A stretch of DNA of 64,000 nt from Parcubacteria group bacterium GW2011_GWA1_56_13 (GTDB taxonomy: Bacteria > Patescibacteriota > Minisyncoccia > Phycocordibacterales > Phycocordibacteraceae), in the NCBI GenBank assembly GCA_001004905.1, contig LCRY01000001.1, forward strand, positions 10,461 through 74,460, in the 5' to 3' direction. The notes below the pieces were generated by a model that saw only the letters and a program-made list of their open reading frames with translations, did not search any database and was not told the DNA's origin. Each line of letters begins with the position of its first letter. Positions within the stretch are counted from its first letter, which is position 1. The translations under genes were made by a program, and so were the position numbers. Below are positions 4,229 to 24,623 of this stretch, one piece after another.

Positions 4229-6393
4229 CCGTTCGCCGGCGCGCCTCATGGCGACATGCATTCCATGCGTCCGTTCTCGCTTTTTTCGGGTTCGGATTCC
4301 TTGTACTCGGGATATTGTTTGTGCTGGTCGCCGCCACTCCCGTGCTCGATATCAGCTCGTTTGCAGCCCGACAGTTGGATCAGTCTACGAAAATCTACGA
4401 CCGCACCGGACAGATCCTTTTATATGACTACAATCGGGACGCGAAACGCGAAATCGTTCCTTTGTACAATATATCGCCGAATATCATAAACGCCACGATC
4501 GCGATCGAAGATTCCAGTTTCTATGAACATGGGGGAATCCGATTCACTTCCATTATTCGTGCGATGATAGCCGATGCACTCGGCGGATCACTCTCCCAAG
4601 GAGGATCGACCATCACCCAACAGGTCGTGAAAAACACTCTTCTTACCAGCAGGAAAAGTATCGTCCGCAAACTGCATGAATGGGTGCTTGCCATCAAGCT
4701 AGAGCAGGTTTATTCCAAGGATCAGATCCTCGAAGCGTACCTCAACAACATTCCTTACGGCGGCACGCTCTACGGCGTGGAGGCGGCGGCCGAGGCCTAT
4801 TTTGGGAAAACCGCGAAGGACATCACCTCTGCCGAGGCCTCTTACCTCGCAGCCATGATCCAGGCGCCTACGTATTATTCCCCTTATGGAACGCATCAGA
4901 AAGAGTTGTCCGCCCGCAAGGACCTCGTCCTTAAGAGGATGTACACATTGGGTTTCATACAGGACATCGAATACGAGCAGGCGAGAAACGAGAAGATTTC
5001 CTTTGCTCCCGCAGGGCAGAATTCCATCATCGCCCCCCATTTCGTGTTCTATATCCTGAATCAGTTGGAAGAAAAATATGGCAAGAACATGCTTATTTCT
5101 GGGCTGAAGGTGACGACGACGCTTGACGCCGATCTTGAGACAAAAGCTGAATCGATCGTAAATCAGTACGCCCTCCAGAACGAAAAGAAGTTTAGGGCGT
5201 CGAACGCTTCCCTCGTCGCCCTCGACCCGGCGACCGGCCAGATCCTCGCGATGGTCGGTTCGCGGGATTTTTTCGATACGGCTATAGACGGTCAATATAA
5301 TGCGGCACTCGCCTCGCGTCAGCCGGGCTCCACGATGAAACCATTCATTTATTCATTGGCGCTTATGAATGGCTACACGCGCAACACGGTCGTGTTTGAC
5401 GTGCCGACACAGTTCTCCACTGCATGCCGCCCATCGGACGTGAACAATAGAACTTCTCCCTGTTATGCACCCCTTGATTACGATAATAAGTTCCGGGGCC
5501 CTATGACATTTGAAACCGCCCTCGCCCAATCCATTAATATTCCCGCTATTAAAGTCCTTTACTTGGTCGGCATACAAAACGCCATAAATCTCGCGAAGTC
5601 ATTCGGTCTCACCACACTCGGCAATCCAAACCAATACGGTCTCACGCTCGTGCTCGGCGGCGGCGAAGTCCGCCTCTTGGATCTGACGGGGGCCTTCGGT
5701 GTCTTCGCCAATGACGGCGTACTTGCCTCTCCGACCGGCATTCTTCAAGTCGATGACGCGCAAGGAAATGTGCTTGAAAAATATGATGCACATCTCTCGA
5801 GGGTCGTGCCCGAACATATTGCTCGAGATATGTCTGCGATGCTCTCTGATGCACAGGCGCGTCTACCGGAATATCCACTCGATTCACCATTGTCTTTCCC
5901 GGGCTATGATGTCGCGGTGAAGACGGGTACGACGGACGATACGCGCGATGCGTGGGTCATCGGCTATACACCGTCGGTCGCGCTCGGCGTCTGGGTGGGA
6001 AATAACGACAATACGCCGATGGTGAAATCCGTAGCTGGGTTTATCGCGGCACCAATGTGGCATGAGGCAATGGCGTATGCTCTTTCAAAATATCCGAGAT
6101 CCTATTTCGGCGAAGCGAGCCCCATTCCTGTATCTGTACCGCCTATGCTCCGAGGAAATTGGCAAATCCCTGATGCGAATGGAATTATTTTCCCTCATAG
6201 TTTGCTGTACTGGACGGATAAAAATAATCCCCAAGGACCGCCTCCTTCTAACCCGGCGCGAGATCCCCAGTTTGAGTACTGGGAGTACGGGATTTCAGCA
6301 TGGTATTACCTGCACCCCGAACTTTTCACCAATCCACCCCTTTTCGTCCCTCTTTCTTCCTCCTTCTCCTCGTCGGAGCAATCTTCTCTGTAA
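4225..6393 (+). CDS. Class A penicillin-binding protein with transglycosylase and transpeptidase domains
   Basis: N-terminal TM; GT51 motifs EDSSFYEHGGI and QGGSTITQQ; SxxK-like transpeptidase region STMKP, KTGTT; 722 aa. Confidence 0.85.
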   Translation: MTVRRRASWRHAFHASVLAFFGFGFLVLGILFVLVAATPVLDISSFAARQLDQSTKIYDRTGQILLYDYNRDAKREIVPLYNISPNIINATIAIEDSSFYEHGGIRFTSIIRAMIADALGGSLSQGGSTITQQVVKNTLLTSRKSIVRKLHEWVLAIKLEQVYSKDQILEAYLNNIPYGGTLYGVEAAAEAYFGKTAKDITSAEASYLAAMIQAPTYYSPYGTHQKELSARKDLVLKRMYTLGFIQDIEYEQARNEKISFAPAGQNSIIAPHFVFYILNQLEEKYGKNMLISGLKVTTTLDADLETKAESIVNQYALQNEKKFRASNASLVALDPATGQILAMVGSRDFFDTAIDGQYNAALASRQPGSTMKPFIYSLALMNGYTRNTVVFDVPTQFSTACRPSDVNNRTSPCYAPLDYDNKFRGPMTFETALAQSINIPAIKVLYLVGIQNAINLAKSFGLTTLGNPNQYGLTLVLGGGEVRLLDLTGAFGVFANDGVLASPTGILQVDDAQGNVLEKYDAHLSRVVPEHIARDMSAMLSDAQARLPEYPLDSPLSFPGYDVAVKTGTTDDTRDAWVIGYTPSVALGVWVGNNDNTPMVKSVAGFIAAPMWHEAMAYALSKYPRSYFGEASPIPVSVPPMLRGNWQIPDANGIIFPHSLLYWTDKNNPQGPPPSNPARDPQFEYWEYGISAWYYLHPELFTNPPLFVPLSSSFSSSEQSSL

Positions 6394-14012: not shown

Positions 14013-15842
14013 CTATGCTTTTTTGTCCTGCTGGGCATACCGCTCTTTCTCCTGCTTGATGGCGAGGAGCTGGGACGGGTCGGACGTGATTATCTGGTCC
14101 TCGGTATAGCTAGCCACTACCTTGATGGCGACGTGTTTCAGGCCTGCGAAAAAGAGCCCTTCGCCCACGCCGGCCTCGAGCAGGAGATATTTTTCCTCGT
14201 CGGTGAGGTTGAATGTCTCCTGCAGAACGTTGATGGTCGTCGGCGACTGCTTGAGGAGGAGTTGGAGCGACGAGTTCGTGAGAATGGGCCGTCCGTAGGG
14301 GCTCTTGAGGAAGTCCTCCACGTCCTGCGTAATGGTGCAGACGCCCAGGTAGTATTTGCGCCCGCGCTTGGCCACCGAGTAGAGGAAGGAAGCGGTGTCT
14401 TCGCTCTTCATCATCCACCACGCCTCGTCAATGATGAGAAGACGCTTCTTCAGTTCGTGGCGCACGGCGTTCCAGATGTAGTGCGTGATGATGTACATCG
14501 CGACCGGCTTCAATTCGTCCTCCATGTCGCGCACCGAGAAGACGGCGAATTGCTGTTTGATGTCTATATTGGTCGGCTGGTTGAGAAATCCCGCCCAGGT
14601 GCCGCGCGTATATTTCGAGAGCCGTTCGACCAAGGACTCGCTCCCTTCCATGCCGGAGAGTACCTGCTCGAAGTCGGAGAGGAGCGGCGGTTCGGCGCCG
14701 GTAAAGTCGGCGTCGCCGGTGATGTCTTTGAGCGCGTACGTCTCGCTGATGGCGCGGTCGACGATAGCGTCCTCTTCGGGCGAGAGGCCGGAAAGCATGA
14801 TACGGAAGAGCCCGACGAGCGCGATGATGTTTGACCGCAGGATGTCTTTCGGGTCCTCGTCTTCTTTGACCGCCGGAAGATCGAACGGGTTTATGTGGTG
14901 CTCGGAGGAGAGCGAAATGTGGAACGATCGGCCGCCGGTCGCCTCTGCGAGCTGGTCATATTCGCGTTCCGGATCGATGACGATGACGTCGGTGCCGAAC
15001 ATGAGGGAGCGAAGCACTTCAAGCTTCGTCGCGTAGCTCTTCCCGGACCCGGACTTTGCGAAAATGACCGAGTTGTAATTCTCAAGCGAAAAGCGGTCGA
15101 AGAGAATAAGCGAAGAATTGTGCCGGTTGATGCCGTAGAGGATGCCACGGTCGCTCGTGAGGTCGAACGAGACAAAGGGGAAGAGCGAAGAGAGCGGCGA
15201 GGAATTCAGCTTCGAGTTAACAAGGAGCTCGTCGGTTCCGAGCGGAAGGCATGAACGGAACCCCTGCTCCTGCTGGAACAGCGCCGGTTTCGTGTAAACG
15301 AGTTTTGCATCGAGGATACCTCGGATATTTCCTTCGGTTTTGTCGATCTCCTCCTTTGAGTCGCCGTAGAGCGCGAGGTAGAGCCCCACTTCAAAGAGTT
15401 TTTCCTGTGCTTGCTGGAGATTGTTGCGCAGCGTCTCCAGATCCTGATAGGCGGTATCAAGCAGGGGGTCGCGCACGAGTCCCTTCGCCTCACGCTCGTT
15501 GATCTGACTCTCTACTTCCGCAACTTTTTTCTGGAAATCACGAAGTGCCTGCGCCGTCTCGATCGGATGGATGAATACGGAAACGTCGAGCACCTTATCA
15601 AGGTTAATGACCGGCGAGAACCATCCGTCGGTGAGGAACCGCGGGTAGGAAATGGTGTAAAAAGCGCGGACGAACTTCTCCCCGAGCTCGATCTCGCGCG
15701 GGCCGATGGAAAGAGCCGTCGGAGCGATCGTATCGACGAGTTCCAAGGAACCCTGTTTGTAGATATCTTTCGGCAAGACCGGCACGACCATCTGGTCTTG
15801 CGAGTGTTCCTTCTTCCGGTTCAAAAAATCGAGGAGTGACAT
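14013..15842 (-). CDS. VirB4/TrbE/CagE-family type IV secretion ATPase (C-terminal ATPase portion)
   Basis: Walker A FAKSGSGKSY; DEAW-type Walker B LLIIDEAWWMM; 609 aa. Confidence 0.8.
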   Translation of the reverse strand: MSLLDFLNRKKEHSQDQMVVPVLPKDIYKQGSLELVDTIAPTALSIGPREIELGEKFVRAFYTISYPRFLTDGWFSPVINLDKVLDVSVFIHPIETAQALRDFQKKVAEVESQINEREAKGLVRDPLLDTAYQDLETLRNNLQQAQEKLFEVGLYLALYGDSKEEIDKTEGNIRGILDAKLVYTKPALFQQEQGFRSCLPLGTDELLVNSKLNSSPLSSLFPFVSFDLTSDRGILYGINRHNSSLILFDRFSLENYNSVIFAKSGSGKSYATKLEVLRSLMFGTDVIVIDPEREYDQLAEATGGRSFHISLSSEHHINPFDLPAVKEDEDPKDILRSNIIALVGLFRIMLSGLSPEEDAIVDRAISETYALKDITGDADFTGAEPPLLSDFEQVLSGMEGSESLVERLSKYTRGTWAGFLNQPTNIDIKQQFAVFSVRDMEDELKPVAMYIITHYIWNAVRHELKKRLLIIDEAWWMMKSEDTASFLYSVAKRGRKYYLGVCTITQDVEDFLKSPYGRPILTNSSLQLLLKQSPTTINVLQETFNLTDEEKYLLLEAGVGEGLFFAGLKHVAIKVVASYTEDQIITSDPSQLLAIKQEKERYAQQDKKA

Positions 15843-15844
15843 AA

Positions 15845-16480
15845 TCAGTTGTCGAGGCGAATGGGGTTCTCAAGCTCTCCGGGATTGAAGGAACGGTACA
15901 AGAGTTCGATGATCTCCTCGGTTCCGAGCGGAACCGCTCGTACGCCGGTGCCGACGAGCCCTTCCGCGACGAGCGAGAGCCGCTGCTCAAGTTGCGCGCG
16001 GTCCTGCTCGAACGAGGCCTCTTGGGCGGCGCTCTTTACCGATGCGCTTTCGCGCTTCAGAAAGCTGACGGTCGCTGCGGCGGACACGTGCGGCGTGTAC
16101 GGCACGATGATGTAGAACGATTTTGTCATGATATTCGCTTGGTCCGTAAACGAGCGTACGAACTCGACGTACTCGTGCAACTGGATGCGCATAAGCTCGG
16201 TCTTTTGCTCCGGCGCTTTCTCTGCAAGTAGGGCGAGATACGGGCGCAGGTCCATACGGCGCGAATTGATGACGATCTGGATGGAAAAATCGAGCGTATT
16301 GAGAAAATTCTGGAAGCCAAGGACGATGGCATGCTGTTCATCGGCGGATTTAAGGCCGAAGTTGATGGAAGAACAGATAAGTACGCCGCGATAGCCGCCG
16401 TCTTTGAGGACGATAGTTCCGTTCCGTATCTCTTTGACCGGAACGAACTGCTGCGTTGCGCCTGCCGATTTAGTCGCCAT
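15845..16480 (-). CDS. VirB4 N-terminal-domain-like protein (possibly the split N-terminal part of the adjacent VirB4)
   Basis: 211 aa. The stop (15845-15847) lies 2 nt from the ATG (15840-15842) of the VirB4 ATPase ORF in a different frame. Combined 820 aa matches a full-length VirB4. Confidence 0.5.
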   Translation of the reverse strand: MATKSAGATQQFVPVKEIRNGTIVLKDGGYRGVLICSSINFGLKSADEQHAIVLGFQNFLNTLDFSIQIVINSRRMDLRPYLALLAEKAPEQKTELMRIQLHEYVEFVRSFTDQANIMTKSFYIIVPYTPHVSAAATVSFLKRESASVKSAAQEASFEQDRAQLEQRLSLVAEGLVGTGVRAVPLGTEEIIELLYRSFNPGELENPIRLDN

Positions 16481-16481
16481 A

Positions 16482-16928
16482 TCAAGTATCGCGTTCAGCG
16501 GGATTCACATCTCCCTTTTTTACGTCAAGTGACCACGCGAGTTCGGAGAGTTTCCCTCGGGTGAGCTTCGGCGTGCCACGCCTGGGTAGCTGCGCCGCCT
16601 CGGCAGCCGCCGCTGCAGCGGTCGCGGCGGTATATTCCTTGACCCCCGTCTCTTTATGTTTCCAGAGGAAGAATTTCGCGCCGGTGTAATAATTGAAACC
16701 GGCCTCCAGGATCTCGATAAATGCCTTGCCGTTCACCTTATAGAATGCGAGTGCCGCGCCGAATCCTGCCACGAGGGCCGAGAGCACGATCGCGAAGATC
16801 ATCGGCAGATAAACGAAGAACACGACGCAAAGCCCCGCAGCGCCGGCGATATAGATGAATTGTTTGAGGGTCAGAGGCCCGATGATCTTGTCCTCTACCT
16901 CGATGAACTGCGGCACTTGGTACTCCAT
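16482..16928 (-). CDS. PrgI-family (VirB3-like) small membrane protein
   Basis: N-terminus MEYQVPQFIEVEDKIIGPLTLKQFIYIAGAAG matches the PrgI-family start (VP..I..EDKI.GPLT..Q.IY); two TM segments; first gene of the operon. Confidence 0.55.
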   Translation of the reverse strand: MEYQVPQFIEVEDKIIGPLTLKQFIYIAGAAGLCVVFFVYLPMIFAIVLSALVAGFGAALAFYKVNGKAFIEILEAGFNYYTGAKFFLWKHKETGVKEYTAATAAAAAAEAAQLPRRGTPKLTRGKLSELAWSLDVKKGDVNPAERDT

Positions 16929-18331: not shown

Positions 18332-18574
18332 ATGGCAAGACAATGTGAAATTACCGGGAAAAGCACGCAAATCGGCGGGCGGTACTCTAACCGCACCCGC
18401 GCGACGCAGTTCAACCCGACCGGCAAAGGGCGCCGCAAGGCAAATCTCCAGCGCCGCCGCATCTACGTCGCCGAGCTCGGCAAGACCGTCATCGTCGATG
18501 TTTCCGTAAAAGGGCTTAAAACTATCAAGAAAAACGGTGCATTCGCCGCGCTCAAGAAGGCAGGAGTGATTTAA
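18332..18574 (+). CDS. rpmB: 50S ribosomal protein L28
   Basis: 80 aa MARQCEITGKSTQIGGRYSNRTRATQFNPTGKGRRKANLQRRRIYVAELGKTVIVDVSVKGLKTIKKNGAFAALKKAGVI; classic L28; lies within the longer track ORF 18086-18574. Confidence 0.9.
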   Translation: MARQCEITGKSTQIGGRYSNRTRATQFNPTGKGRRKANLQRRRIYVAELGKTVIVDVSVKGLKTIKKNGAFAALKKAGVI

Positions 18575-18581
18575 TAACGGC

Positions 18582-18615
18582 AAAAAAGAGCGCCGGACCA
18601 TTCGTTCGGCGCTCT
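18582..18615 (-). terminator. Terminator of cassette gene A (minus strand)
   Basis: Hairpin agagcgccg-gaccattcgtt-cggcgctct preceded on the plus strand by AAAAAA (a T-run on the minus strand). Confidence 0.5.
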
Positions 18616-18629
18616 GCTCACGGGCTCTG

Positions 18630-19343
18630 TCATTGCTTGCGTGCATCAATGATCGATGCGATCCGATCAATCATCCGTTCGGTAAGATGGTCTTTGTGGA
18701 AAATCGCGCACCCCTCCTCGAGATTTCGTAACCGGCAGATACTCCAGTATTCGTCCAAGGTGAACGGGATACCGAGGTACCGAGACCATGGGCAGACTGA
18801 ATAGTGAGTCCAGTCGACAGCCGTGCGACTTCCGAACCCTTGCGTATTCCACGCATGAAGCATCGGTCGGACAATCGATCCGTACGCGAGACCCTCGACG
18901 TACAGAATCGGAGGCGGAATAGCTGCCCATACTCGATCGTTTTCCATTGCCAGATGTGCGAGTAGCCATGCGTTTTCGAAGCAATGTCTGGGCCGAGGTT
19001 CGAAGGGAACGGTGGTCCATTCGTACGGCACGTAGTCCACTCCATATTCGAGCAATAGCCTCAGCCCAGCAGGGTGGACGCTGTTCAAGATCTTGAGATA
19101 GCCGGTGAATTGTTCTCCTCGCGCTCTTCTACCCGCTACCTGCTCGATAAAAGCGCGCAAGCTTGTATCGTGCCCGAGCGGGAATTTCCGAGCGAATCTC
19201 CGCGAAAGAAGATTACGGAAGTTCTTCCCTTGCGCGCTCATCAGCCATTTCCAATCGGTACGTTGGTCTATGTTTATTTCTACGGGTCGGCGCATGGCCT
19301 CCTCCCTATCAAGTTGTCCGCTGCGGACTCTACCAGATTGCAT
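18630..19343 (-). CDS. Cassette gene A: hypothetical protein with a transglutaminase-like/papain-like Cys-His-Asp motif arrangement
   Basis: HCFENAWLLAHLAMENDRVWAAIPPPILYVEG (compare TGase core G.C..FA.L...L..GIPAR.V.G), then MLHAWNT (HAW) and AVDWT (D); 237 aa. Confidence 0.45.
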   Translation of the reverse strand: MQSGRVRSGQLDREEAMRRPVEINIDQRTDWKWLMSAQGKNFRNLLSRRFARKFPLGHDTSLRAFIEQVAGRRARGEQFTGYLKILNSVHPAGLRLLLEYGVDYVPYEWTTVPFEPRPRHCFENAWLLAHLAMENDRVWAAIPPPILYVEGLAYGSIVRPMLHAWNTQGFGSRTAVDWTHYSVCPWSRYLGIPFTLDEYWSICRLRNLEEGCAIFHKDHLTERMIDRIASIIDARKQ

Positions 19344-19361
19344 ACAGTAATTCTAGTCGGC

Positions 19362-19409
19362 AAGAAGCACGGCGCCTTCGCCGCCCTCAAAAAAGCCGGT
19401 CGCATTTAA
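19362..19409 (+). repeat. Degenerate direct copy no. 2 of the rpmB 3' end
   Basis: aagaagcacggcgccttcgccgccctcaaaaaagccggtcgcatttaa encodes KKHGAFAALKKAGRI*; compare the native rpmB end at 18527-18574 encoding KKNGAFAALKKAGVI*. Confidence 0.85.
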
Positions 19410-19424
19410 ATTCACAAAACAAAA

Positions 19425-19449
19425 AGGACGGCCCGCCGTCCTTTTTTTG
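19425..19449. terminator. Bidirectional intrinsic terminator after rpmB-3' copy 2
   Basis: aggacggc-ccg-gccgtcct with an A-run upstream and TTTTTTT downstream. Confidence 0.6.
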
Positions 19450-19458
19450 GTCACGCCC

Positions 19459-20028
19459 TCACACCACCCGGCGCTCGGAAAATACTTTACCGAGAAGGCT
19501 CCCGTCCGTCTGGATGAGAGATTCAGTAATCGTCCACCCTGCCGCACGCATTTCAGCGTGGTACATTTGGCGTACCTCGTGTCGAGTCAAGATGATTCGA
19601 CCGTCCGGGCCAATGACGCGCGCCCAATATGGACCCTCACCCCAATCAAGCCACTGGTACGCGAAATTGATTGCGTTCAGTAGCGACTGGGACGTGTAGT
19701 TTTCGATGAAAGTCGGATTGAGCGTTGGACCGCAGACGACGAACGATGCGACTTTTGTCGGGAGGCCATACCCGCCTCTTGCCGCGTCCCAAACGCGCCG
19801 AGTCGTCCATGGCGAGACCACTATCTTCCCTTCGAAACTGTAGATCCCTGCCCACTGGGCTCTGCCGCCCCACATGAGTAAATGGGCGACTAGTTCCATA
19901 AGCAGGCGATTCTGAACCTGAATGATCTTGTCCTTCTGCGGGAGGCAGACTCTTAGGACGAATGACCGTCCGTTAAGCGCCTTCTTGGGGTAGGAACCGT
20001 AGCTTTCAACGTCGTTCGGTCGGTCCAT
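19459..20028 (-). CDS. Cassette gene B: diverged paralog of cassette gene A lacking the Cys/His/Asp positions
   Basis: LVAHLLMWGGRAQWAGIYSFEG aligns with LLAHLAMENDRVWAAI..YVEG of gene A; the catalytic C/H/D equivalents are replaced; 189 aa. Confidence 0.45.
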   Translation of the reverse strand: MDRPNDVESYGSYPKKALNGRSFVLRVCLPQKDKIIQVQNRLLMELVAHLLMWGGRAQWAGIYSFEGKIVVSPWTTRRVWDAARGGYGLPTKVASFVVCGPTLNPTFIENYTSQSLLNAINFAYQWLDWGEGPYWARVIGPDGRIILTRHEVRQMYHAEMRAAGWTITESLIQTDGSLLGKVFSERRVV

Positions 20029-20084
20029 CGGATTCTCCTTTAAGAGCAGTTCAGCTCGGACTATACTATGCGAAAGGTATTTTT

Positions 20085-20131
20085 AAAAGCACGGCGTCTT
20101 CGCCACTCTCAAACGCGCCGGTCGGATTTAA
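20085..20131 (+). repeat. Degenerate direct copy no. 3 of the rpmB 3' end
   Basis: aaaagcacggcgtcttcgccactctcaaacgcgccggtcggatttaa encodes KHGVFATLKRAGRI*. Confidence 0.8.
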
Positions 20132-20180
20132 AGCATAGATTCTTGTAATTTAATGAAGCGCTTGTTATCTTGGGAACGGA

Positions 20181-20441
20181 ATGGAGGATTTGCCCATGGC
20201 AAAACCATTTGCTGCCGGTGATCAAGTCGAGTGGCGTTATTTCGGGGGAAAAGAATGGACTGGAGGAATAATTGGGTCGATTGACCATGAACTTGGGATC
20301 ATGAGTGTTAACCAGGGCCATTTTTATGGCATTGAAGCTTCCCGCGCCACTCACACAGTCCGCAGAATAAATGGCAGATGGTTGGCGTTCCGCGCAGGCC
20401 ATGATGACTATATCGACCGAATACGCCATGTCAAAACCTGA
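20181..20441 (+). CDS. Hypothetical small protein (weak DUF2945/Tudor-like resemblance)
   Basis: 86 aa; FAAGDQVEWRYFGGKEWTGGIIGSID motif; lies after the third rpmB-3' copy. Confidence 0.35.
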   Translation: MEDLPMAKPFAAGDQVEWRYFGGKEWTGGIIGSIDHELGIMSVNQGHFYGIEASRATHTVRRINGRWLAFRAGHDDYIDRIRHVKT

Positions 20442-20481: not shown

Positions 20482-21180
20482 CTACTTTTTTGTAATCATT
20501 TGACCGTTTGAAGTGTACATACTCGCGGGAGTTGAAGAAGAAGAGATAACGAGGTCCGGCGGAGGAAAACCCGCATTAAGCACAGCAAGCCATGCGGCGG
20601 CGCGCGGCGGCAGGTCGTTTTGGATGAGGATGGAAGTCGAACCATAAGAAATGCGCAGCACGACCGCACCATCGGCCGTGTTCAGGGCGGAGGCGGTGTT
20701 TGGCGGCCAGAGCACATCGGCATATGCGCCGTCGCCAAGCGAAAAGCGCTGGCCGCGCTCGGCCGTGAAATGGCGTAGGCCCCGCTGCGCGCTTGCCGCC
20801 GCGGCAAGCGCGGCTTCCTGGCTTCGAGTTCCTTCCGCGCGCGGGCGCACGAGCGCCGAAACGCGATAGCGTTCCATAATGTGCGGCAATCCGCCGGACG
20901 AATCGGCGGAAACGGTCGTGAGCACGATGCTGTCAATGTTTCTGTGCCACATCGGCAGGGCCGAACCGAGTTCGCGTAATATTCCGGCGTCCTTCCCGGC
21001 GTTTATAAGCAGCGTTGTGCCGCTCGGGCTCCGCACCAACACCGCGTTATCCTTGTCTGTATCGAGCACGCGTACTTCGAGCACCGGCAACGCGAATGCG
21101 GTCCGATACACGAGGACATTTCCGGCGACGAAAGCGACAAGTACCACAACATAGAAACCCACAACTTCTACACGGGGCAT
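20482..21180 (-). CDS. ComEC C-terminal metallo-beta-lactamase-like domain protein, catalytically degenerate and encoded separately
   Basis: LEVRVLDTDKDNAVLVRSPSGTTLLINAG...IDSIVLTTVSADSSGG follows the ComEC MBL-domain pattern; the HxHxDH metal ligands are replaced; N-terminal TM. Confidence 0.55.
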   Translation of the reverse strand: MPRVEVVGFYVVVLVAFVAGNVLVYRTAFALPVLEVRVLDTDKDNAVLVRSPSGTTLLINAGKDAGILRELGSALPMWHRNIDSIVLTTVSADSSGGLPHIMERYRVSALVRPRAEGTRSQEAALAAAASAQRGLRHFTAERGQRFSLGDGAYADVLWPPNTASALNTADGAVVLRISYGSTSILIQNDLPPRAAAWLAVLNAGFPPPDLVISSSSTPASMYTSNGQMITKK

Positions 21181-21209
21181 ACATAAAGTATATGGTACAT
21201 TCTATCTCT

Positions 21210-21800
21210 ATGAACTACTCACCAAAGACATTCAAGCTCCCGAAACTCGAGGGAATTTCCGAGAAGCAGCTCAAAGTGCATCTTGCTTTGTACGAAGGAT
21301 ACGTGAAGCACGTAAATCTCATCATGGATACCATTGCCAAGCAGGGTAAGGCCGATGACGAGGGCGGGAAATATGCGACCGCGGAATTGCGCCGCCGTCT
21401 CGCGTTCGAGTTCGACGGCATGCGCATGCACGAGTACTACTTCGAACAATTCGAAGGCGAAAAAGGAGGGAGTTCGGATTCAGGACTCGGGAAGGCGGCA
21501 AAGGAAAAATACGGCAGCGGCGAGAAGTTTATTGAACACATCAAGGAAGTCGCCGGTACGCGCGGCATCGGCTGGGTCGTCGTCTATAAGGACGCGCGTG
21601 CGGATACTATCCACACCGTTTTCGTCACCGATCACGAGCTCGGCCAGCTCGCCGGGCTCCCTATCATCCTCGCGCTCGACCTGTGGGAGCACGCGTATAT
21701 GGTGGATTATGTTCCGGCCGAAAAGAAAAACTACATTGACGCTTCCCTTGCGAACGTCAATTGGAGCGTCGTCGAAAAGCGTTTCGACGAAGCCAAGTAA
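21210..21800 (+). CDS. Fe/Mn superoxide dismutase family protein
   Basis: C-terminal PIILALDLWEHAYMVDYVPAEKKNYIDASLANVNWSVVEKRF matches the SOD D.WEHAY...NW..V..R motif; N-terminal LPKLEG...YVKHVN region; overlaps the ComEC ORF 3' end convergently by about 70 nt. Confidence 0.7.
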   Translation: MNYSPKTFKLPKLEGISEKQLKVHLALYEGYVKHVNLIMDTIAKQGKADDEGGKYATAELRRRLAFEFDGMRMHEYYFEQFEGEKGGSSDSGLGKAAKEKYGSGEKFIEHIKEVAGTRGIGWVVVYKDARADTIHTVFVTDHELGQLAGLPIILALDLWEHAYMVDYVPAEKKNYIDASLANVNWSVVEKRFDEAK

Positions 21801-23263
21801 ATCAATCCGGCGTACGCAACGAGTGCAAGCCAGAACGGGAACGGCGGGAGTGAGAATGCCGCAAGCGGTAGCGCGGCGGACTCGCGCGCGATAAATAAGA
21901 GGTAAGCATTCGCAAGGTACGCGGGGAATGCGAGCACGATGCCAATGAGCGGGGCCATAGAACCGAACAGCATTCCCGCAAAGCCCGCGAGGGCGGAAGA
22001 CCCCATCGCGAGCGGGACAAACGGCATCACGAGCAGGTTTGCCGGAATGGAAACGAGCGAGAGATTGCCGGTGTCGTAGAGGAGAAGCGGCAGCACGGCG
22101 ATCTGCGCCGAAAGCGTGGTCGCCACCGCATTTTTCCAGAATGAGCTTTTCATAAACGACAAAAACGTCTCGACGATGGGAGCGAGCCAGATGAGTCCGG
22201 TAGTTGCCGCCACCGAAAGGCCGAAGCCGGGGTCAAAGACGAGGTAGAGAGGGTTCCAGAGGAGCATGAGGAACACAACGAGGAGGAGCGCCCGACCGGC
22301 CGCATAGGTGCGGCCGGTCGCGCGGGCGTAGAGCGCGATGAGCGCCATGAGCGCGGCGCGCAGCGCCGTCGCCGAGAACCCAGCGATACCCACGAACATA
22401 AGCAGGGCAAACGCTCCGGCCGCCGCGCCCCAACGCCTCGGGAGCGCAGTGAGCGCGAGCGCGGCTATCACCCACTCGGCAACGACCATGACGTTGTAGC
22501 CGGAGAGCACGATTATCTGCACGAGGCCGCTGCGGACGAAATCTTCCTTTACTTTCTCGCCCAATCCCGATTTGCCGCCGATGACGATGCCGCTGGCCAG
22601 GGATGCATGGGGCTCGGGTAATGTCGCGGCGATACCATCAAGGAACGCATGCTTTACGCGCGCAAGCGCGGCCGGAAGCGAGTACCACGGCGCTGGCGAT
22701 TCGACGCGCAGGTATGCGAAATTGAGCATAAAACGCACGCCGTCGCGCTCCAGATATTTGTCGTAGCGGAATATGCGGCCATTATCGTCGGCGAACGGTT
22801 CCGGGATGGCGAGCGTTCCCGACACGAATACTCGGTCGCCGACGGCGACGCTTGGATAGCGCGGTGCGACTGCCAGCATCGTCGTTGATTCATTCCCTTT
22901 TGAAACTCGTATTTCGACGCGCTGGTTCGCATCACGCACATCGGGGTCGCTCACCACGATGCCTTCATACGAAACTCGCTGCCCCACTTCGGCGACGAAG
23001 ACCGTCGGCAGAGGCGATTCGGAAAGCGCCATGCGCACCGCGCCGAGCGCGGCCACGAGGCAAAAAGCGATGGCGAGCGCATAAAATATATGCCGCTTGA
23101 AGTAGTAGAACGCGCCGAACACACCCGCCGCGAGCACAAAAAATACCGCCGGTTCCCATCCCGACGTGAGCGACCGTACGAACACCCCTCCCGCGAATCC
23201 TATGACAACGGCAATAAGTGCACCCACGTAAAGTATGGTAGCGCAACCTGGGTCTTGACACAT
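21731..23263 (-). CDS. comEC: DNA internalisation-related competence protein ComEC/Rec2 (DUF4131 plus Competence domain, no MBL domain)
   Basis: 510 aa polytopic; Competence-domain motifs LALTALPRRWGAAAGAFALLMFVGIAGFSATALRAALMALIALYA...LLWNPLYLV.DPGF. Confidence 0.8.
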   Translation of the reverse strand: MCQDPGCATILYVGALIAVVIGFAGGVFVRSLTSGWEPAVFFVLAAGVFGAFYYFKRHIFYALAIAFCLVAALGAVRMALSESPLPTVFVAEVGQRVSYEGIVVSDPDVRDANQRVEIRVSKGNESTTMLAVAPRYPSVAVGDRVFVSGTLAIPEPFADDNGRIFRYDKYLERDGVRFMLNFAYLRVESPAPWYSLPAALARVKHAFLDGIAATLPEPHASLASGIVIGGKSGLGEKVKEDFVRSGLVQIIVLSGYNVMVVAEWVIAALALTALPRRWGAAAGAFALLMFVGIAGFSATALRAALMALIALYARATGRTYAAGRALLLVVFLMLLWNPLYLVFDPGFGLSVAATTGLIWLAPIVETFLSFMKSSFWKNAVATTLSAQIAVLPLLLYDTGNLSLVSIPANLLVMPFVPLAMGSSALAGFAGMLFGSMAPLIGIVLAFPAYLANAYLLFIARESAALPLAAFSLPPFPFWLALVAYAGLIYLASSKRFSTTLQLTFAREASM

Positions 23264-23309
23264 TTCCCATATAAAGATAACATATCCGTTATGTTAGCCC
23301 CGGTACATT

Positions 23310-23681
23310 ATGGAATATAGCTTCTGGCAGACCCGACAAGGGGGAACGCCAGTTCTAGATGACTTACAAGCTGTAGCCCAAGCCGATGCTAACTCAGGAA
23401 AATCTTACTGGCTCCAGCTGAGCAAGGTCGAGAAATATACCTATCAGCAATTAATAAGGAAACTTCTCAAGAAGCTCAAAGGGAAGAATCCCTACAAGCT
23501 GTTTGAACTAAGATTTGCCCTGCCCCGGAAGATAGCAAGGACCTTTTGCGTCATCAGTCGTGATTCGAAATTATGGTTGTTACATCTGGTTATTAAGAAG
23601 AAAGATGGAACTAAGCGTTCTGATATAAAGATTGCTGAAGAAAGGGCAAAAATCCTAGAACAGACAATCCATTATCTGTAA
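23310..23681 (+). CDS. HigB/Gp49-family (RelE/ParE superfamily) toxin-like protein
   Basis: LFELRFALPRKIARTFCVISRDSKLWLLHLVIKKKDGTKRSDIKIAEERAKIL matches the Gp49/HigB core (ElR...yRi.yf....ivLLhgf.KK); low-GC islet. Confidence 0.6.
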   Translation: MEYSFWQTRQGGTPVLDDLQAVAQADANSGKSYWLQLSKVEKYTYQQLIRKLLKKLKGKNPYKLFELRFALPRKIARTFCVISRDSKLWLLHLVIKKKDGTKRSDIKIAEERAKILEQTIHYL

Positions 23682-23691
23682 ATGAAACAAT

Positions 23692-24138
23692 ATGAAGATA
23701 CAACACGCAAAATCGATACTGCTTGAAAATGATATGATTCGAAAATCATTTGGGAAAAATGATCTTGATAGCATCAAGATGAATGTCGGTCTGCAGATTC
23801 TTGAGCTGAGGTTAATCAAGAACCTTACTCAAAAGCAGCTTGCCAAAAAAATCGGTACTAAGCAGCCGAGTGTTGCGCGTGTTGAAAGAGGAGCTATGGC
23901 CCCTAGTTTAACGTTCCTATATAAAATAGCGGCTGCGGTTGATACGGAATTAATTCCACCTAAATTCGCAGTTGTTGAAAGGAACGAACAACTATATCAA
24001 ACGAATAATTTTCCTTCCTACCATTTCAGCAATGTGCAGAGTCAAGGAAAGCTGCAAAAAAATGCTGAAATTTCACATGTGCAACTTCCAAGTACTCGGG
24101 AGATATTCTCGTTTGATCATCAATTAGTTACACGGTAA
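23692..24138 (+). CDS. XRE-family HTH protein, putative HigA-like antitoxin
   Basis: HTH LRLIKNLTQKQLAKKIGTKQPSVARVERG; immediately downstream of the toxin-like gene; low GC. Confidence 0.6.
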   Translation: MKIQHAKSILLENDMIRKSFGKNDLDSIKMNVGLQILELRLIKNLTQKQLAKKIGTKQPSVARVERGAMAPSLTFLYKIAAAVDTELIPPKFAVVERNEQLYQTNNFPSYHFSNVQSQGKLQKNAEISHVQLPSTREIFSFDHQLVTR

Positions 24139-24149
24139 TTCTCAAAAAC

Positions 24150-24623
24150 ATGGAAAAAGAAAACATACTTAGATACATGGGCGGCATAGTTTGTGAATCT
24201 TCTGCAGTCGACCAACAGACCCAAAGTCTTTCTGCCTTCAAGATAATTGACCAAATTAATGTGAACATTAAATCAACCGACCCGACGGTAACATCAAAAT
24301 CACTACAAAAAATAACAATCCCTCTTTCGCTACAAGTTATTTCTCTATGGAAAAGAAATAAACAATCGGATCAAGGGAGGGACATCGAAGGAAAAATCGT
24401 TGTGGAGATTATTGATCCCCGAGGTGAAGTCCTCGCAAAACATCCTATTAATGTCCTACTGCCATTAAACAAAATTCGTTCCAGAACAATTCTTAATATA
24501 CAGGGAATGCCTGTATCAACTACTGGTGAGTATTGTGTGCAGATGAAAGAGGTTAACACAAACGGGAAAGAATCATCACCTCTGGCCAAGCTTTGTTTCG
24601 ATTTAATTCTAAACAAGGAGTGA
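24150..24623 (+). CDS. Hypothetical protein in the low-GC islet
   Basis: 157 aa; AT-rich codon usage like its neighbours; no recognisable motif. Confidence 0.4.
   Translation: MEKENILRYMGGIVCESSAVDQQTQSLSAFKIIDQINVNIKSTDPTVTSKSLQKITIPLSLQVISLWKRNKQSDQGRDIEGKIVVEIIDPRGEVLAKHPINVLLPLNKIRSRTILNIQGMPVSTTGEYCVQMKEVNTNGKESSPLAKLCFDLILNKE

What the first reader, a model, noticed from the sequence alone, without database searches (positions are those of the whole stretch)
18630..20028. Cassette genes are paralogs: one has a transglutaminase-like Cys-His-Asp core and the other is a degenerate copy
Seen directly: gene A (18630-19343, minus) contains HCFENAWLLAHLAMENDRVWAAIPPPILYVEG, then MLHAWNT, then AVDWT. 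This mirrors the transglutaminase-like cysteine peptidase core: G.C..FA.L...L..GIPAR.V.G, then HAW, then D. Gene B (19459-20028, minus) aligns over the same stretch: LVAHLLMWGGRAQWAGIYSFEG matches gene A's LLAHLAMENDRVWAAI..YVEG. Gene B lacks the Cys, His and Asp equivalents. Inference: an active transglutaminase-like or papain-like enzyme sits beside a pseudoenzyme paralog, each on its own mobile-looking cassette next to a ribosomal protein gene. Possible roles are a polymorphic effector with an immunity or decoy partner, or a cell-wall-modifying enzyme. The function is unknown. The protein family assignment comes from motif spacing only.
Basis: partly seen in the sequence, partly recalled or inferred. 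Interest (0 to 1): 0.65.

Follow-up and report, generated by a model that had tools for sequence, protein, structure and literature searches.

The report
Cysteine enzyme gene beside unrelated neighbour
Gene A encodes a likely active cysteine enzyme from an unnamed protein family of Parcubacteria. Gene B is not a degenerate copy of it but an unrelated protein, and the two sit in separate small insertions behind the ribosomal protein L28 gene.

Summary

The paralog claim fails. A and B align no better than shuffles, profile-profile probability is 0.1%, and the predicted folds differ. B is an internally duplicated (ββαββα)×2 protein from a rare orphan family. A and B co-occur only in this one population and are separated by a terminator.

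Each gene lies in a 0.7-0.8 kb unit bounded by copies of the last ~46 nt of rpmB. This site carries variable inserts in roughly 30% of related genomes. The substrate and role of A, and the function of B, remain unknown.

The parts
18332..18574 (+). rpmB (ribosomal protein L28, 80 aa). Its 3' end is the repeated sequence.
   Evidence: Pfam Ribosomal_L28 E=1e-12. It is 75-97% identical to L28 in most related loci, falling to about 55% in the most distant.
18530..18575 (+). R1: the functional last ~46 nt of rpmB including the stop codon. First copy of the repeat.
   Evidence: the repeat finder D1. nhmmer with a profile of rpmB 3' ends gives E=7.5e-14.
18587..18615 (.). GC-rich hairpin (AGAGCGCCGGAC-loop-GTTCGGCGCTCT) between the convergent rpmB and gene A. 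Likely a bidirectional terminator.
   Evidence: Read from the sequence. Related CGCCGGAC hairpins follow A homologues in L088, L089 and L104. The simple terminator scan did not call it.
18630..19295 (-). Gene A, 221 aa from M17. The longest ORF runs to 19343 (237 aa). It has an N-terminal helical domain plus a C-terminal Cys-His-Asp domain. Catalytic candidates are C121 (18981-18983), H163 (18855-18857) and D177 (18813-18815) in 237-aa numbering, equal to C105, H147 and D161 of the 221-aa protein.
19365..19410 (+). R2: remnant copy of the rpmB 3' end (encodes ..KHGAFAALKKAGRI*), not attached to an rpmB body.
   Evidence: 72% identical to R1 and 85% to R3. nhmmer E=5.4e-12. Homology starts about 45-50 nt before the stop, as in remnants in L024, L029 and L103.
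19421..19446 (-). Terminator-like hairpin (AAAAAGGACGGC-loop-GCCGTCCTTTTT + T tract) downstream of gene B. It separates B from A.
   Evidence: Terminator scan. The same stem follows B homologues in L102 and L103.
19459..20028 (-). Gene B, 189 aa. A soluble basic protein made of two tandem ββαββα modules plus a C-terminal β-hairpin, from an orphan family.
   Evidence: ORF. Seven homologues in total. AF2 best model pLDDT 85.9. Internal repeat hhalign probability 82%, E=1e-5. No Pfam, PDB, PHROG, NCBIfam or PADLOC hit.
20060..20087 (-). Promoter-like site (TTTAAA-16-TATAGT) upstream of gene B. An AAGGAG RBS lies 6 nt before the B start codon.
   Evidence: Consensus scan, 9 of 12 matches. RBS read from the sequence. 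A consensus match only.
20087..20132 (+). R3: second remnant copy of the rpmB 3' end, and the most degraded.
   Evidence: 85% identical to R2. nhmmer E=0.0012 over 20085-20112.
20181..20441 (+). 86-aa ORF in a lower-GC stretch between R3 and the comEC C-terminal gene. Possibly a third accessory unit. No family assignment.
   Evidence: ORF. GC 0.48-0.50. No hit in Pfam, PHROG, NCBIfam or PADLOC. Found only in loci at least 99% identical to the window.
20482..21180 (-). comEC C-terminal (metallo-beta-lactamase-like) gene. This core gene abuts rpmB directly in most relatives and marks the far edge of the ~1.9 kb insert.
   Evidence: Weak Pfam Lactamase_B_2 hit. Synteny in 44 related loci.

Best explanation
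Gene A encodes a soluble, cytoplasmic thiol enzyme of a previously unnamed Parcubacteria-wide family. An N-terminal helical bundle of about 75 residues precedes a small α+β catalytic domain of the papain or transglutaminase-like type. Cys121 sits at the N-terminus of a helix. His163 lies on the following β-strand and Asp177 just after the next one.

The inferred chemistry is as follows. The Cys thiolate, activated by His and oriented by Asp, attacks an amide, or possibly a thioester, carbonyl of a peptide or protein substrate and forms an acyl-enzyme. Water then resolves it (peptidase, amidase or deamidase) or an amine does (transamidase). The substrate is unknown.

Gene B is not related to A. 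It is a rare orphan protein built from an internal duplication of a ββαββα module, and its function is unknown.

The two genes are independent single-gene cargo units, each with its own ribosome-binding site and hairpin. They were inserted serially behind rpmB. Each unit is bounded by a copy of the last ~46 nt of rpmB, as if added by site-specific or Campbell-type recombination at that sequence. They resemble integrase-less att-flanked elements (CIME-like accretion) more than an operon.

Shown: the ORFs, the conservation, the lack of A-B homology, the repeats, the variable occupancy of the site and the separate occurrence of A and B. Inferred: the fold class, the catalysis, the direction and order of insertion, and the recombination mechanism.
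For: A family:
- 18 close homologues and 307 clusters at E<=1e-3 in 1.84 billion representatives, nearly all 210-240 aa.
- C121, G151, H163, W165 and G191 are invariant. N124, Y148, V149, E150, N166 and D177 are conserved in at least 90% of 116 sequences.
- The AF2 model has pLDDT 88.5 and pTM 0.84, with helix 121-134 and strands 147-155, 161-167, 174-176 and 187-194.
- hhalign of the family against real transglutaminase cores taken from PDB sequences aligns Cys to Cys, YVEG to YVxGY and HAW to HAW, with P=0.029. Only 6 of 200 column shuffles score as high.
- The His-to-Asp spacing of 14 residues equals that read off the 3isr alignment.

A and B are not paralogs. The predicted folds differ. 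B has an internal repeat.

A and B are independent: a terminator lies between them. Outside the near-identical L094-L099 contigs (99.2% identical or more), A homologues occur in 7 contexts without B, and B homologues in 4 contexts without A.

Cassettes:
- Three rpmB-end copies.
- The same kind of remnant follows a B homologue in L103 and flanks other cargo in L024 and L029.
- An rpsI-end duplication flanks a HicA cassette next to an A homologue.
- In about 31 of 44 related loci rpmB directly abuts comEC-C or SOD. About 13 carry inserts of 0.4-2.1 kb.
- Published analogue: integration at 3' ends of rpsI, rpmG, rpmE and rplL, and CIME accretion (PMC5704250).
Against: - No profile HMM library recognises A. 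Pfam, NCBIfam, PHROGs, PADLOC and PDB sequences all give nothing, even when all 116 members are scanned at E<=10.
- Foldseek against the PDB finds nothing (best E=0.48).
- The profile-profile match is only marginal (P≈0.03). A four-sequence transglutaminase HMM enriches A members only modestly among decoys.
- D177 is not strictly invariant.
- Only the best of the five B models reaches high confidence (85.9; the others are 52-77), from just 7 sequences.
- No recombinase, excised circle or empty-site variant of this strain was observed. All 14 contigs carrying B show the same arrangement.
- Some A contexts (L090 beside rplU, L092) show no flanking repeats.
Confidence: 0.6

Rival explanations
1. 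One reading: A and B are paralogs, an active transglutaminase-like enzyme beside a degenerate pseudoenzyme copy that lost its Cys, His and Asp.
For: A 17-residue stretch looks alike by eye (LLAHLAMENDRV-WAAI and LVAHLLMWGGRAQWAGI) and is the top Smith-Waterman alignment. The genes are adjacent, on the same strand, and sit in similar cassettes.
Against: - That alignment scores 34 against 31.6±5.3 for shuffles, and 28% of shuffles score as high.
- BLASTP gives E=2.4.
- hhalign of the family profiles gives probability 0.1%.
- The predicted architectures differ: helical domain plus α+β for A, against (ββαββα)×2+ββ for B.
- The aligned segment of B is homologous to B's own second repeat.
- B scores at null level against the transglutaminase core.
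Confidence: 0.03
2. A and B are a functional pair without being homologous: a cysteine-protease or deamidase toxin (A) with an immunity, antitoxin or decoy protein (B).
For: Papain-like toxins with adjacent immunity genes are common (established knowledge). A PDB entry for a papain-like toxin/immunity pair appears among the Foldseek hits, which are at noise level. The same insertion hot spots elsewhere carry a HicA module and a TA-like pair of small ORFs. Both proteins are small, basic and cytoplasmic.
Against: - A terminator hairpin and an rpmB remnant lie between the genes, and B has its own promoter-like site.
- The order is B then A with a 115-nt gap.
- In 7 other A contexts no B homologue lies within 3-5 kb, and in 4 other B contexts no A homologue does. 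Co-occurrence is limited to contigs that are 99.2% or more identical to the window.
- The A family has at least 307 clusters against 7 proteins for B.
- No conserved small partner gene accompanies A elsewhere.
Confidence: 0.07
3. The conserved Cys, His, Asp and Glu of A are not a papain-type triad. They form a metal-binding or otherwise non-nucleophilic site in a fold only superficially like transglutaminases, so A is not a thiol hydrolase or transferase.
Against: - Only one Cys and one His are invariant, too few for a typical Zn site.
- The Cys at a helix N-terminus followed by His and Asp on or next to successive strands is the hallmark topology.
- The profile alignment to transglutaminase cores is in register at all three motifs.
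Confidence: 0.2
4. The rpmB-end copies are not recombination scars of mobile cassettes. They are leftovers of local tandem duplication or divergence, or of homologous-recombination patchwork, and A and B are ordinary lineage-specific genes.
For: No integrase or excised form was found. Every contig carrying the exact B protein has the same layout. Some A homologues have no flanking repeats.
Against: - The remnants begin at about the same position, 45-50 nt before the stop, in independent genomes and flank unrelated cargo.
- R2 encodes a ...AGRI* ending like that of another lineage's rpmB (L021) rather than the host's own ...AGVI*.
- The site is empty in about 70% of relatives.
- A parallel rpsI-end duplication flanks a HicA cassette.
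- Short metagenome contigs of A and B homologues break exactly in the repeat.
Confidence: 0.1

Closest known systems
Bacterial and archaeal transglutaminase-like cysteine enzymes (Pfam Transglut_core PF01841 and relatives such as BTLCP/LapG and PeiW/PeiP; PDB 3isr, 6g49, 4fgo, 8jx4, 9crn)
Other papain-fold Cys-His-Asp/Asn enzymes (papain/cathepsins, staphopain, SpvD, N-terminal glutamine amidase NTAQ1/C8orf32, papain-like deamidase toxins)
   Different: Scores are lower than for the transglutaminase-like hits. There is no sequence similarity, and no pro-region, secretion signal or partner gene.
CIMEs and tandem accretion at 3' ends of ribosomal protein genes in streptococci (IME/ICE integration into rpsI, rpmG, rpmE, rplL; PMC5704250)
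   Same: Direct repeats made of the 3' end of a ribosomal protein gene bound the elements. The elements lack integrase and transfer genes. They form a tandem array with three att-like copies. Cargo elsewhere includes a toxin-antitoxin module.
   Different: The units here are tiny (0.5-0.8 kb, one gene or a pair of small ORFs). They look like intact promoter-gene-terminator modules rather than decayed 10-100 kb elements. No integrase-bearing element was found at this site in 44 related genomes. The host is a Parcubacteria (CPR) genome. Excision was not shown.
Integron gene cassettes
   Same: An array of single promoter-poor or self-contained ORFs, each with a short recombination-site-like repeat. 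Cargo is diverse and mostly uncharacterised, including TA modules.
   Different: The repeat is the coding 3' end of rpmB, not an imperfect-palindrome attC. No IntI, attI or Pc platform was identified or searched for. Cassette genes are antisense to rpmB here but co-directional in L024 and L029.

Membership tests
Transglutaminase-like / papain-like cysteine enzymes (gene A) | Significant match to a curated family model (Pfam Transglut_core, BTLCP, NLPC_P60, Peptidase_C* and others, or NCBIfam) | tested here: not met
   No relevant hit for A or for any of 116 family members at E<=10. NCBIfam gives none. Profile searches against PDB sequences give none.
Transglutaminase-like / papain-like cysteine enzymes (gene A) | Conserved Cys, His and Asp in that order, within C-x-x-x-A / H-[AS]-W / D-x-T type motifs | tested here: met
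   C121 and H163 are invariant and D177 is conserved in at least 90% of 116 sequences. hhalign places them on the Cys and His of 3isr, 6g49, 2f4m and factor XIII cores, with P=0.029 and 6 of 200 shuffles scoring as high.
Transglutaminase-like / papain-like cysteine enzymes (gene A) | Core fold: the nucleophile Cys at the N-terminus of an α-helix packed against a β-sheet that carries His and Asp on adjacent strands | tested here: inconclusive
Transglutaminase-like / papain-like cysteine enzymes (gene A) | Triad geometry (Cys Sγ to His N about 3-4 Å, Asp hydrogen-bonded to His) and thiol-dependent activity | not testable with these tools
   Model coordinates are not exposed. No biochemistry was possible.
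Enzyme/pseudoenzyme paralog pair (A with B) | Detectable homology between the two proteins | tested here: not met
   BLASTP E=2.4. 28% of shuffles score as high. hhalign probability 0.1%.
Enzyme/pseudoenzyme paralog pair (A with B) | Same fold | tested here: not met
Toxin-immunity or toxin-antitoxin pair (A with B) | Co-transcription as an operon | tested here: not met
   A terminator-like hairpin at 19421-19446 and an rpmB remnant lie between B and A, and B has its own promoter-like site. This rests on consensus scans only.
Toxin-immunity or toxin-antitoxin pair (A with B) | Conserved co-occurrence of the two families | tested here: not met
   They co-occur only in L094-L099, which are 99.2% or more identical to the window. 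Seven other A contexts lack B and four other B contexts lack A.
att-flanked integrase-less elements (CIME-like accretion) | Element bounded by direct repeats that include the 3' end of the target gene | tested here: met
   R1, R2 and R3. Remnants have similar left boundaries in L024, L029 and L103.
att-flanked integrase-less elements (CIME-like accretion) | No integration or transfer genes inside the element | tested here: met
   Units of 835 and 722 bp hold one ORF each.
att-flanked integrase-less elements (CIME-like accretion) | A cognate integrase-bearing element using the same att site in related genomes | tested here: not met
   In 44 related loci the inserts behind rpmB are at most 2.1 kb, and none has room for an integrase plus cargo. 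Recombinases elsewhere in the genome were not searched.
att-flanked integrase-less elements (CIME-like accretion) | Excision or integration demonstrated (circular form, empty site in the same population) | not testable with these tools
   All 14 contigs with the exact B protein show the filled arrangement. Read-level data are not available.
Integron cassette array | attC palindromic sites, an IntI integrase and an attI/Pc platform | not tested
   The repeats are coding rpmB ends, not attC-like palindromes. No IntI search was done.

The most novel reading that the evidence does not exclude
The last ~46-48 nt of rpmB, and in another lineage of rpsI, may serve in Parcubacteria as the attachment site of an undescribed gene-capture system that works on mini-cassettes. 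Self-contained units of 0.5-0.8 kb (promoter, ORF, hairpin and target-gene end) would be added serially behind a ribosomal protein gene by a recombinase acting in trans. This would be functionally like an integron but use a coding gene end as its site. The Cys-His-Asp enzyme family (A) and the duplicated-module protein (B) would be recurrent cargo, with conflict-related or host-interaction roles alongside toxin-antitoxin modules.
Probability: 0.2. Interest if true: 0.7.

Novelty: new variant of a known kind. Interest (0 to 1): 0.35.

Why it matters
Candidate-phyla-radiation bacteria have tiny genomes in which a large share of genes has no assigned function. Gene A defines a sizeable family (at least 307 clusters at 50% identity) that no curated library covers. 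The family now has a testable catalytic hypothesis: Cys121, His163 and Asp177 on a transglutaminase-like core. That gives a direct handle for mutagenesis, activity-based probes and substrate hunting.

Removing the paralog and pseudoenzyme story prevents a wrong annotation of gene B, which is instead an orphan with an internally duplicated fold.

The setting may be more valuable than the proteins themselves. Single-gene units bounded by copies of a ribosomal-protein gene end recur across genomes with different cargo. This could explain how these reduced genomes sample accessory genes.

Tried and rejected
- Pfam, PHROGs, NCBIfam and PADLOC scans of A, B and the 86-aa ORF found nothing, as did Pfam scans of all 18 and then 116 A members and all 7 B members at E<=10.
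- Profile searches of PDB sequences with A1, A4 and A3 gave only noise.
- Foldseek of model A against the PDB had a best E of 0.48. The AFDB50 library was unavailable.
- Model coordinates are not exposed, so the triad distances could not be measured.
- A regex search of 1 Mb of fetched loci for canonical transglutaminase cores, meant to build a local reference, found none.
- A four-sequence transglutaminase-core HMM searched against A members plus 2,177 decoy ORFs gave only modest enrichment, with ranks 1, 2, 10, 15, 20 and 26.
- The 189-aa gene next to the A homologue in L004 has the same length as B but is unrelated.
- Longer A-family members were checked for informative domain fusions. They carry only basic or low-complexity tails.
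- IMG/VR scans for A and B relatives found none. A metagenome scan for B found only the same locus.
- Rfam and tRNA scans of the region found nothing relevant.
- The two small ORFs in the L024 and L029 cassettes look like a RelE/ParE-type pair by eye, but no library confirmed this.
- Literature searches on Patescibacteria integrons, Parcubacteria transglutaminase-like proteins and S. pyogenes TglA returned nothing useful.
Full report
**What is at the coordinates**

The window comes from a Parcubacteria (CPR) genome. The exact proteins are annotated as hypothetical proteins of "Parcubacteria group bacterium GW2011_GWB1_57_6" and of a Kaiserbacteria MAG. ORF A (18630-19343, minus, 237 aa) and ORF B (19459-20028, minus, 189 aa) both exist.

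A's true start is almost certainly Met17, the ATG at 19295 preceded by GGGAGGAGG. All homologues and the NCBI model (221 aa) begin there, and residues 1-23 of the long ORF are disordered in the model. I keep the 237-aa numbering to match the finding. C121, H163 and D177 are codons 18981-18983, 18855-18857 and 18813-18815.

**Gene A: conservation**

A first search found 18 homologues, all without Pfam domains and all from Parcubacteria-type assemblies. A profile search of 1.84 billion cluster representatives found 307 clusters at E<=1e-3 and 124 at E<=1e-30. Nearly all are 210-240 aa and cover the full length.

In an alignment of 116 diverse members (down to about 21% identity to A), C121, G151, H163, W165 and G191 are invariant. 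N124, Y148, V149, E150, N166, D177, Y189 and E198 are conserved in at least 90%.

**Gene A: fold**

AlphaFold2 with the 18-sequence alignment gave pLDDT 88.5 and pTM 0.84. The model has:
- a helical N-terminal domain (residues 27-100);
- strand 102-106;
- helix 121-134, which begins exactly at C121;
- strands 147-155 (YVEG), 161-167 (with H163), 174-176 (with D177 just after) and 187-194;
- two C-terminal helices.

A nucleophile at a helix N-terminus, followed by His and Asp on or next to successive strands, is the papain or transglutaminase-like arrangement (established knowledge).

**Gene A: sequence link to known families**

No curated library recognises A or any of its 116 relatives. Profile searches of PDB sequences give nothing either.

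To get an independent test, I retrieved real transglutaminase-core segments from PDB sequences (3isr, 6g49, 2f4m and factor XIII) with a consensus query. I aligned them as HMMER had and ran hhalign against the A family:
- The single reported alignment pairs C121 with the catalytic Cys, YVEG with [YV]-[VF]-x-G-Y, and HAW with HAW or HAC.
- The score is 16.6 and P=0.029.
- Only 6 of 200 column-shuffled controls reach that score, and the reversed profile scores 13.2.
- The B family scores 12.2, which is null level.
- A crude HMM of the four cores ranks A members 1st, 2nd, 10th, 15th, 20th and 26th among 2,293 sequences, a modest enrichment.
- The His-to-Asp spacing of 14 residues equals that of 3isr.

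Taken together, the transglutaminase-like reading is the best available. It rests on several weak, concordant lines rather than one strong one. I could not measure the triad geometry because coordinates are not exposed.

**Gene B**

Only seven proteins form the B family. The invariant residues are W80, A82, G88, G100-P-T-x-N-P105, A119, W126, Y134-W135, P141, G143, Y156, A158-E159 and G164. No Cys is conserved.

The best AF2 model has pLDDT 85.9, but the other four models reach only 52-77, so confidence is moderate. It shows ββαββα twice, followed by a β-hairpin. hhalign of the two halves against each other gives 82% probability and E=1e-5, which indicates an internal duplication. It is homologous to LLNAINFAYQWLDWGEGPYWARVIGPDG in repeat 2.

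**Are A and B paralogs or partners?**

They are not paralogs:
- BLASTP gives E=2.4 for the proposed segment.
- The Smith-Waterman score is 34 against 31.6±5.3 for 2,000 shuffles, and 28% of shuffles score as high.
- Profile-profile probability is 0.1% with either the 3- or the 7-sequence B alignment.
- The predicted folds differ.

They do not look like an operon either. A terminator-like hairpin (19421-19446) and an rpmB remnant separate them. B has its own promoter-like site and RBS, and A has its own strong RBS.

Co-occurrence is limited to contigs that are 99.2% or more identical to the window (L094-L099). A homologues in seven other contexts have no B nearby, and B homologues in four other contexts have no A. 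Both proteins are soluble and basic, with pI 9.3 and 9.5 and no hydrophobic segment. Neither has relatives in IMG/VR viral contigs.

**The cassette setting**

The last ~46 nt of rpmB, including the stop codon, occur three times in direct orientation: R1 at 18530-18575 (functional), R2 at 19365-19410 and R3 at 20087-20132. This is the strongest local direct repeat in the 64-kb window. A profile of 45 rpmB 3' ends detects R2 at E=5e-12 and R3 at E=1e-3. The layout is:

rpmB-R1, hairpin, gene A (antisense), R2, hairpin, gene B (antisense), R3, 86-aa ORF, comEC-C.

In 44 related loci, fetched through the neighbouring M50 peptidase gene, rpmB is followed directly by comEC-C or SOD in about 31. About 13 carry inserts of 0.4-2.1 kb with unrelated cargo, including an HD_4 hydrolase, a protein kinase-like gene, membrane proteins and unknowns. 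Other observations fit the same pattern:
- Two of the loci (L024 and L029) also have a second rpmB-end copy. There it bounds a pair of small overlapping ORFs.
- A B homologue (57% identical, L103) is followed by the same hairpin and an orphan rpmB-end remnant. Short contigs carrying A or B homologues (L089, L102, L104) stop inside or at that sequence.
- The remnants all begin about 45-50 nt before the stop.
- A homologues also lie next to rpmB in L088 and in the same gap in L034. One lies beside rplU in L090.
- In Adlerbacteria an A homologue follows a HicA cassette that is itself bounded by a duplicated rpsI 3' end.

This is the signature of site-specific or Campbell-type insertion at a gene end. 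The closest described analogue is the accretion of integrase-less CIMEs at the 3' ends of rpsI, rpmG, rpmE and rplL in streptococci (PMC5704250).

There are differences. The units here are single-gene modules, and no integrase-bearing element was seen at this site. I have no evidence of excision, because all 14 contigs with the exact B protein show the same arrangement.

**Mechanism, committed**

A is most likely an active cytoplasmic thiol enzyme. Cys121 is the nucleophile, His163 the general base and Asp177 the orienting residue. It would act on a peptide or protein amide as a peptidase, amidase, deamidase or transamidase. The N-terminal helical domain would provide substrate recognition. 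All of this is inference; only the conservation and the predicted topology are shown. B's role is unknown. The two genes are independent accessory cargo at an insertion hot spot.

**Novelty and score**

The sub-claim that A has a transglutaminase-like core is reasonable and is now backed by family-wide conservation and a model. A is best described as a new, uncurated family within a known superfamily, which is a new variant of a known kind. B is an orphan. The interest of the finding as stated is modest. The surrounding cassette phenomenon is the more intriguing lead.

Noticed in passing
window 18530-20132; L024 ~2318-2948; L029 ~5155-5717: The last ~46-48 nt of rpmB recur as direct repeats that bound small inserts (three copies in the window, two each in L024 and L029). 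About 13 of 44 related genomes have inserts of 0.4-2.1 kb of unrelated cargo at this site, and none has an integrase. It looks like an attachment-site hot spot for mini-cassettes.
   Followed up: partly
L001 4308-4341 and 4885-4918 (also L002, L003): In an Adlerbacteria genome the last 34 nt of rpsI (S9) are duplicated at 88% identity on either side of a 94-aa ORF plus a HicA toxin gene. A homologue of gene A follows immediately. This is the same gene-end duplication signature at a different ribosomal protein gene.
   Followed up: partly
L024 2449-2924 (minus); L029 5215-5696 (minus): The cassettes between rpmB-end copies in these loci carry two small overlapping ORFs (77-79 aa, then 81-112 aa). 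The second ends in ...WQARVTDTVRFYFQI.GDTYRLL.IRKHPK, which looks RelE/ParE-like by eye. Pfam, NCBIfam and PADLOC did not confirm it.
   Followed up: partly
L102 (657 nt), L103 (802 nt), L089 (968 nt), L104 (1892 nt): Metagenome contigs carrying A or B homologues are very short, and several (L089, L102, L104) end inside or right at the rpmB-end sequence. This suggests assembly breaks caused by repeat copies or population heterogeneity at this site.
   Followed up: partly
window 19421-19446; L102 and L103 downstream of the B homologues: The hairpin after gene B (AAAAGGACGGC...GCCGTCCTTTTT) keeps an identical stem in homologous cassettes whose proteins are only 57-66% identical. It may be more than a terminator.
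   Followed up: no
window 20181-20441 (+): An 86-aa ORF sits in a lower-GC stretch (0.48-0.50 against about 0.55) between R3 and comEC-C. It has no family hit and is seen only in near-identical contigs. It may be a third accessory unit.
   Followed up: partly
window 20482-21180 (-), ~21200-21800 (+), 21731-23263 (-): ComEC is encoded as two separate genes: an N-terminal DUF4131/Competence part and a C-terminal lactamase-like part. A superoxide dismutase gene on the opposite strand lies between them and overlaps the N-terminal gene. The arrangement recurs in related loci.
   Followed up: no
window 23200-24600: A sharp GC drop (0.37-0.44 against 0.55-0.65) coincides with a 123-aa ORF (23310-23681) followed by a 148-aa ORF (23692-24138) that looks like an XRE-type HTH protein by eye. 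It may be a foreign toxin-antitoxin-like island next to comEC.
   Followed up: no
window 14013-16928 (-); L088 6021-8684; L094 6101-6570: A PrgI / TraC-like / VirB4-TraG-type ATPase gene set (type IV secretion or conjugation-like) is conserved about 1.5 kb from the M50-rpmB pair in this window and its relatives.
   Followed up: no
proteins P0075, P0093, P0111, P0129, P0146, P0036 (A family): Many A-family members end in strongly basic Lys/Arg-rich tails (for example ...RKRAGKKMPRRAKQKKTKSRK). The family is also often encoded next to ribosomal protein genes (rpmB, rpsI, rplU). This may hint at nucleic-acid or ribosome association, or may simply reflect insertion-site preference.
   Followed up: no
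L004 versus L005/L006, left of ~4700: The same A homologue (P0011) has core genes (priA, def, fmt) upstream in one contig and an HTH_17-containing block of unknown genes in others. Its flank is therefore another polymorphic insertion point.
   Followed up: no
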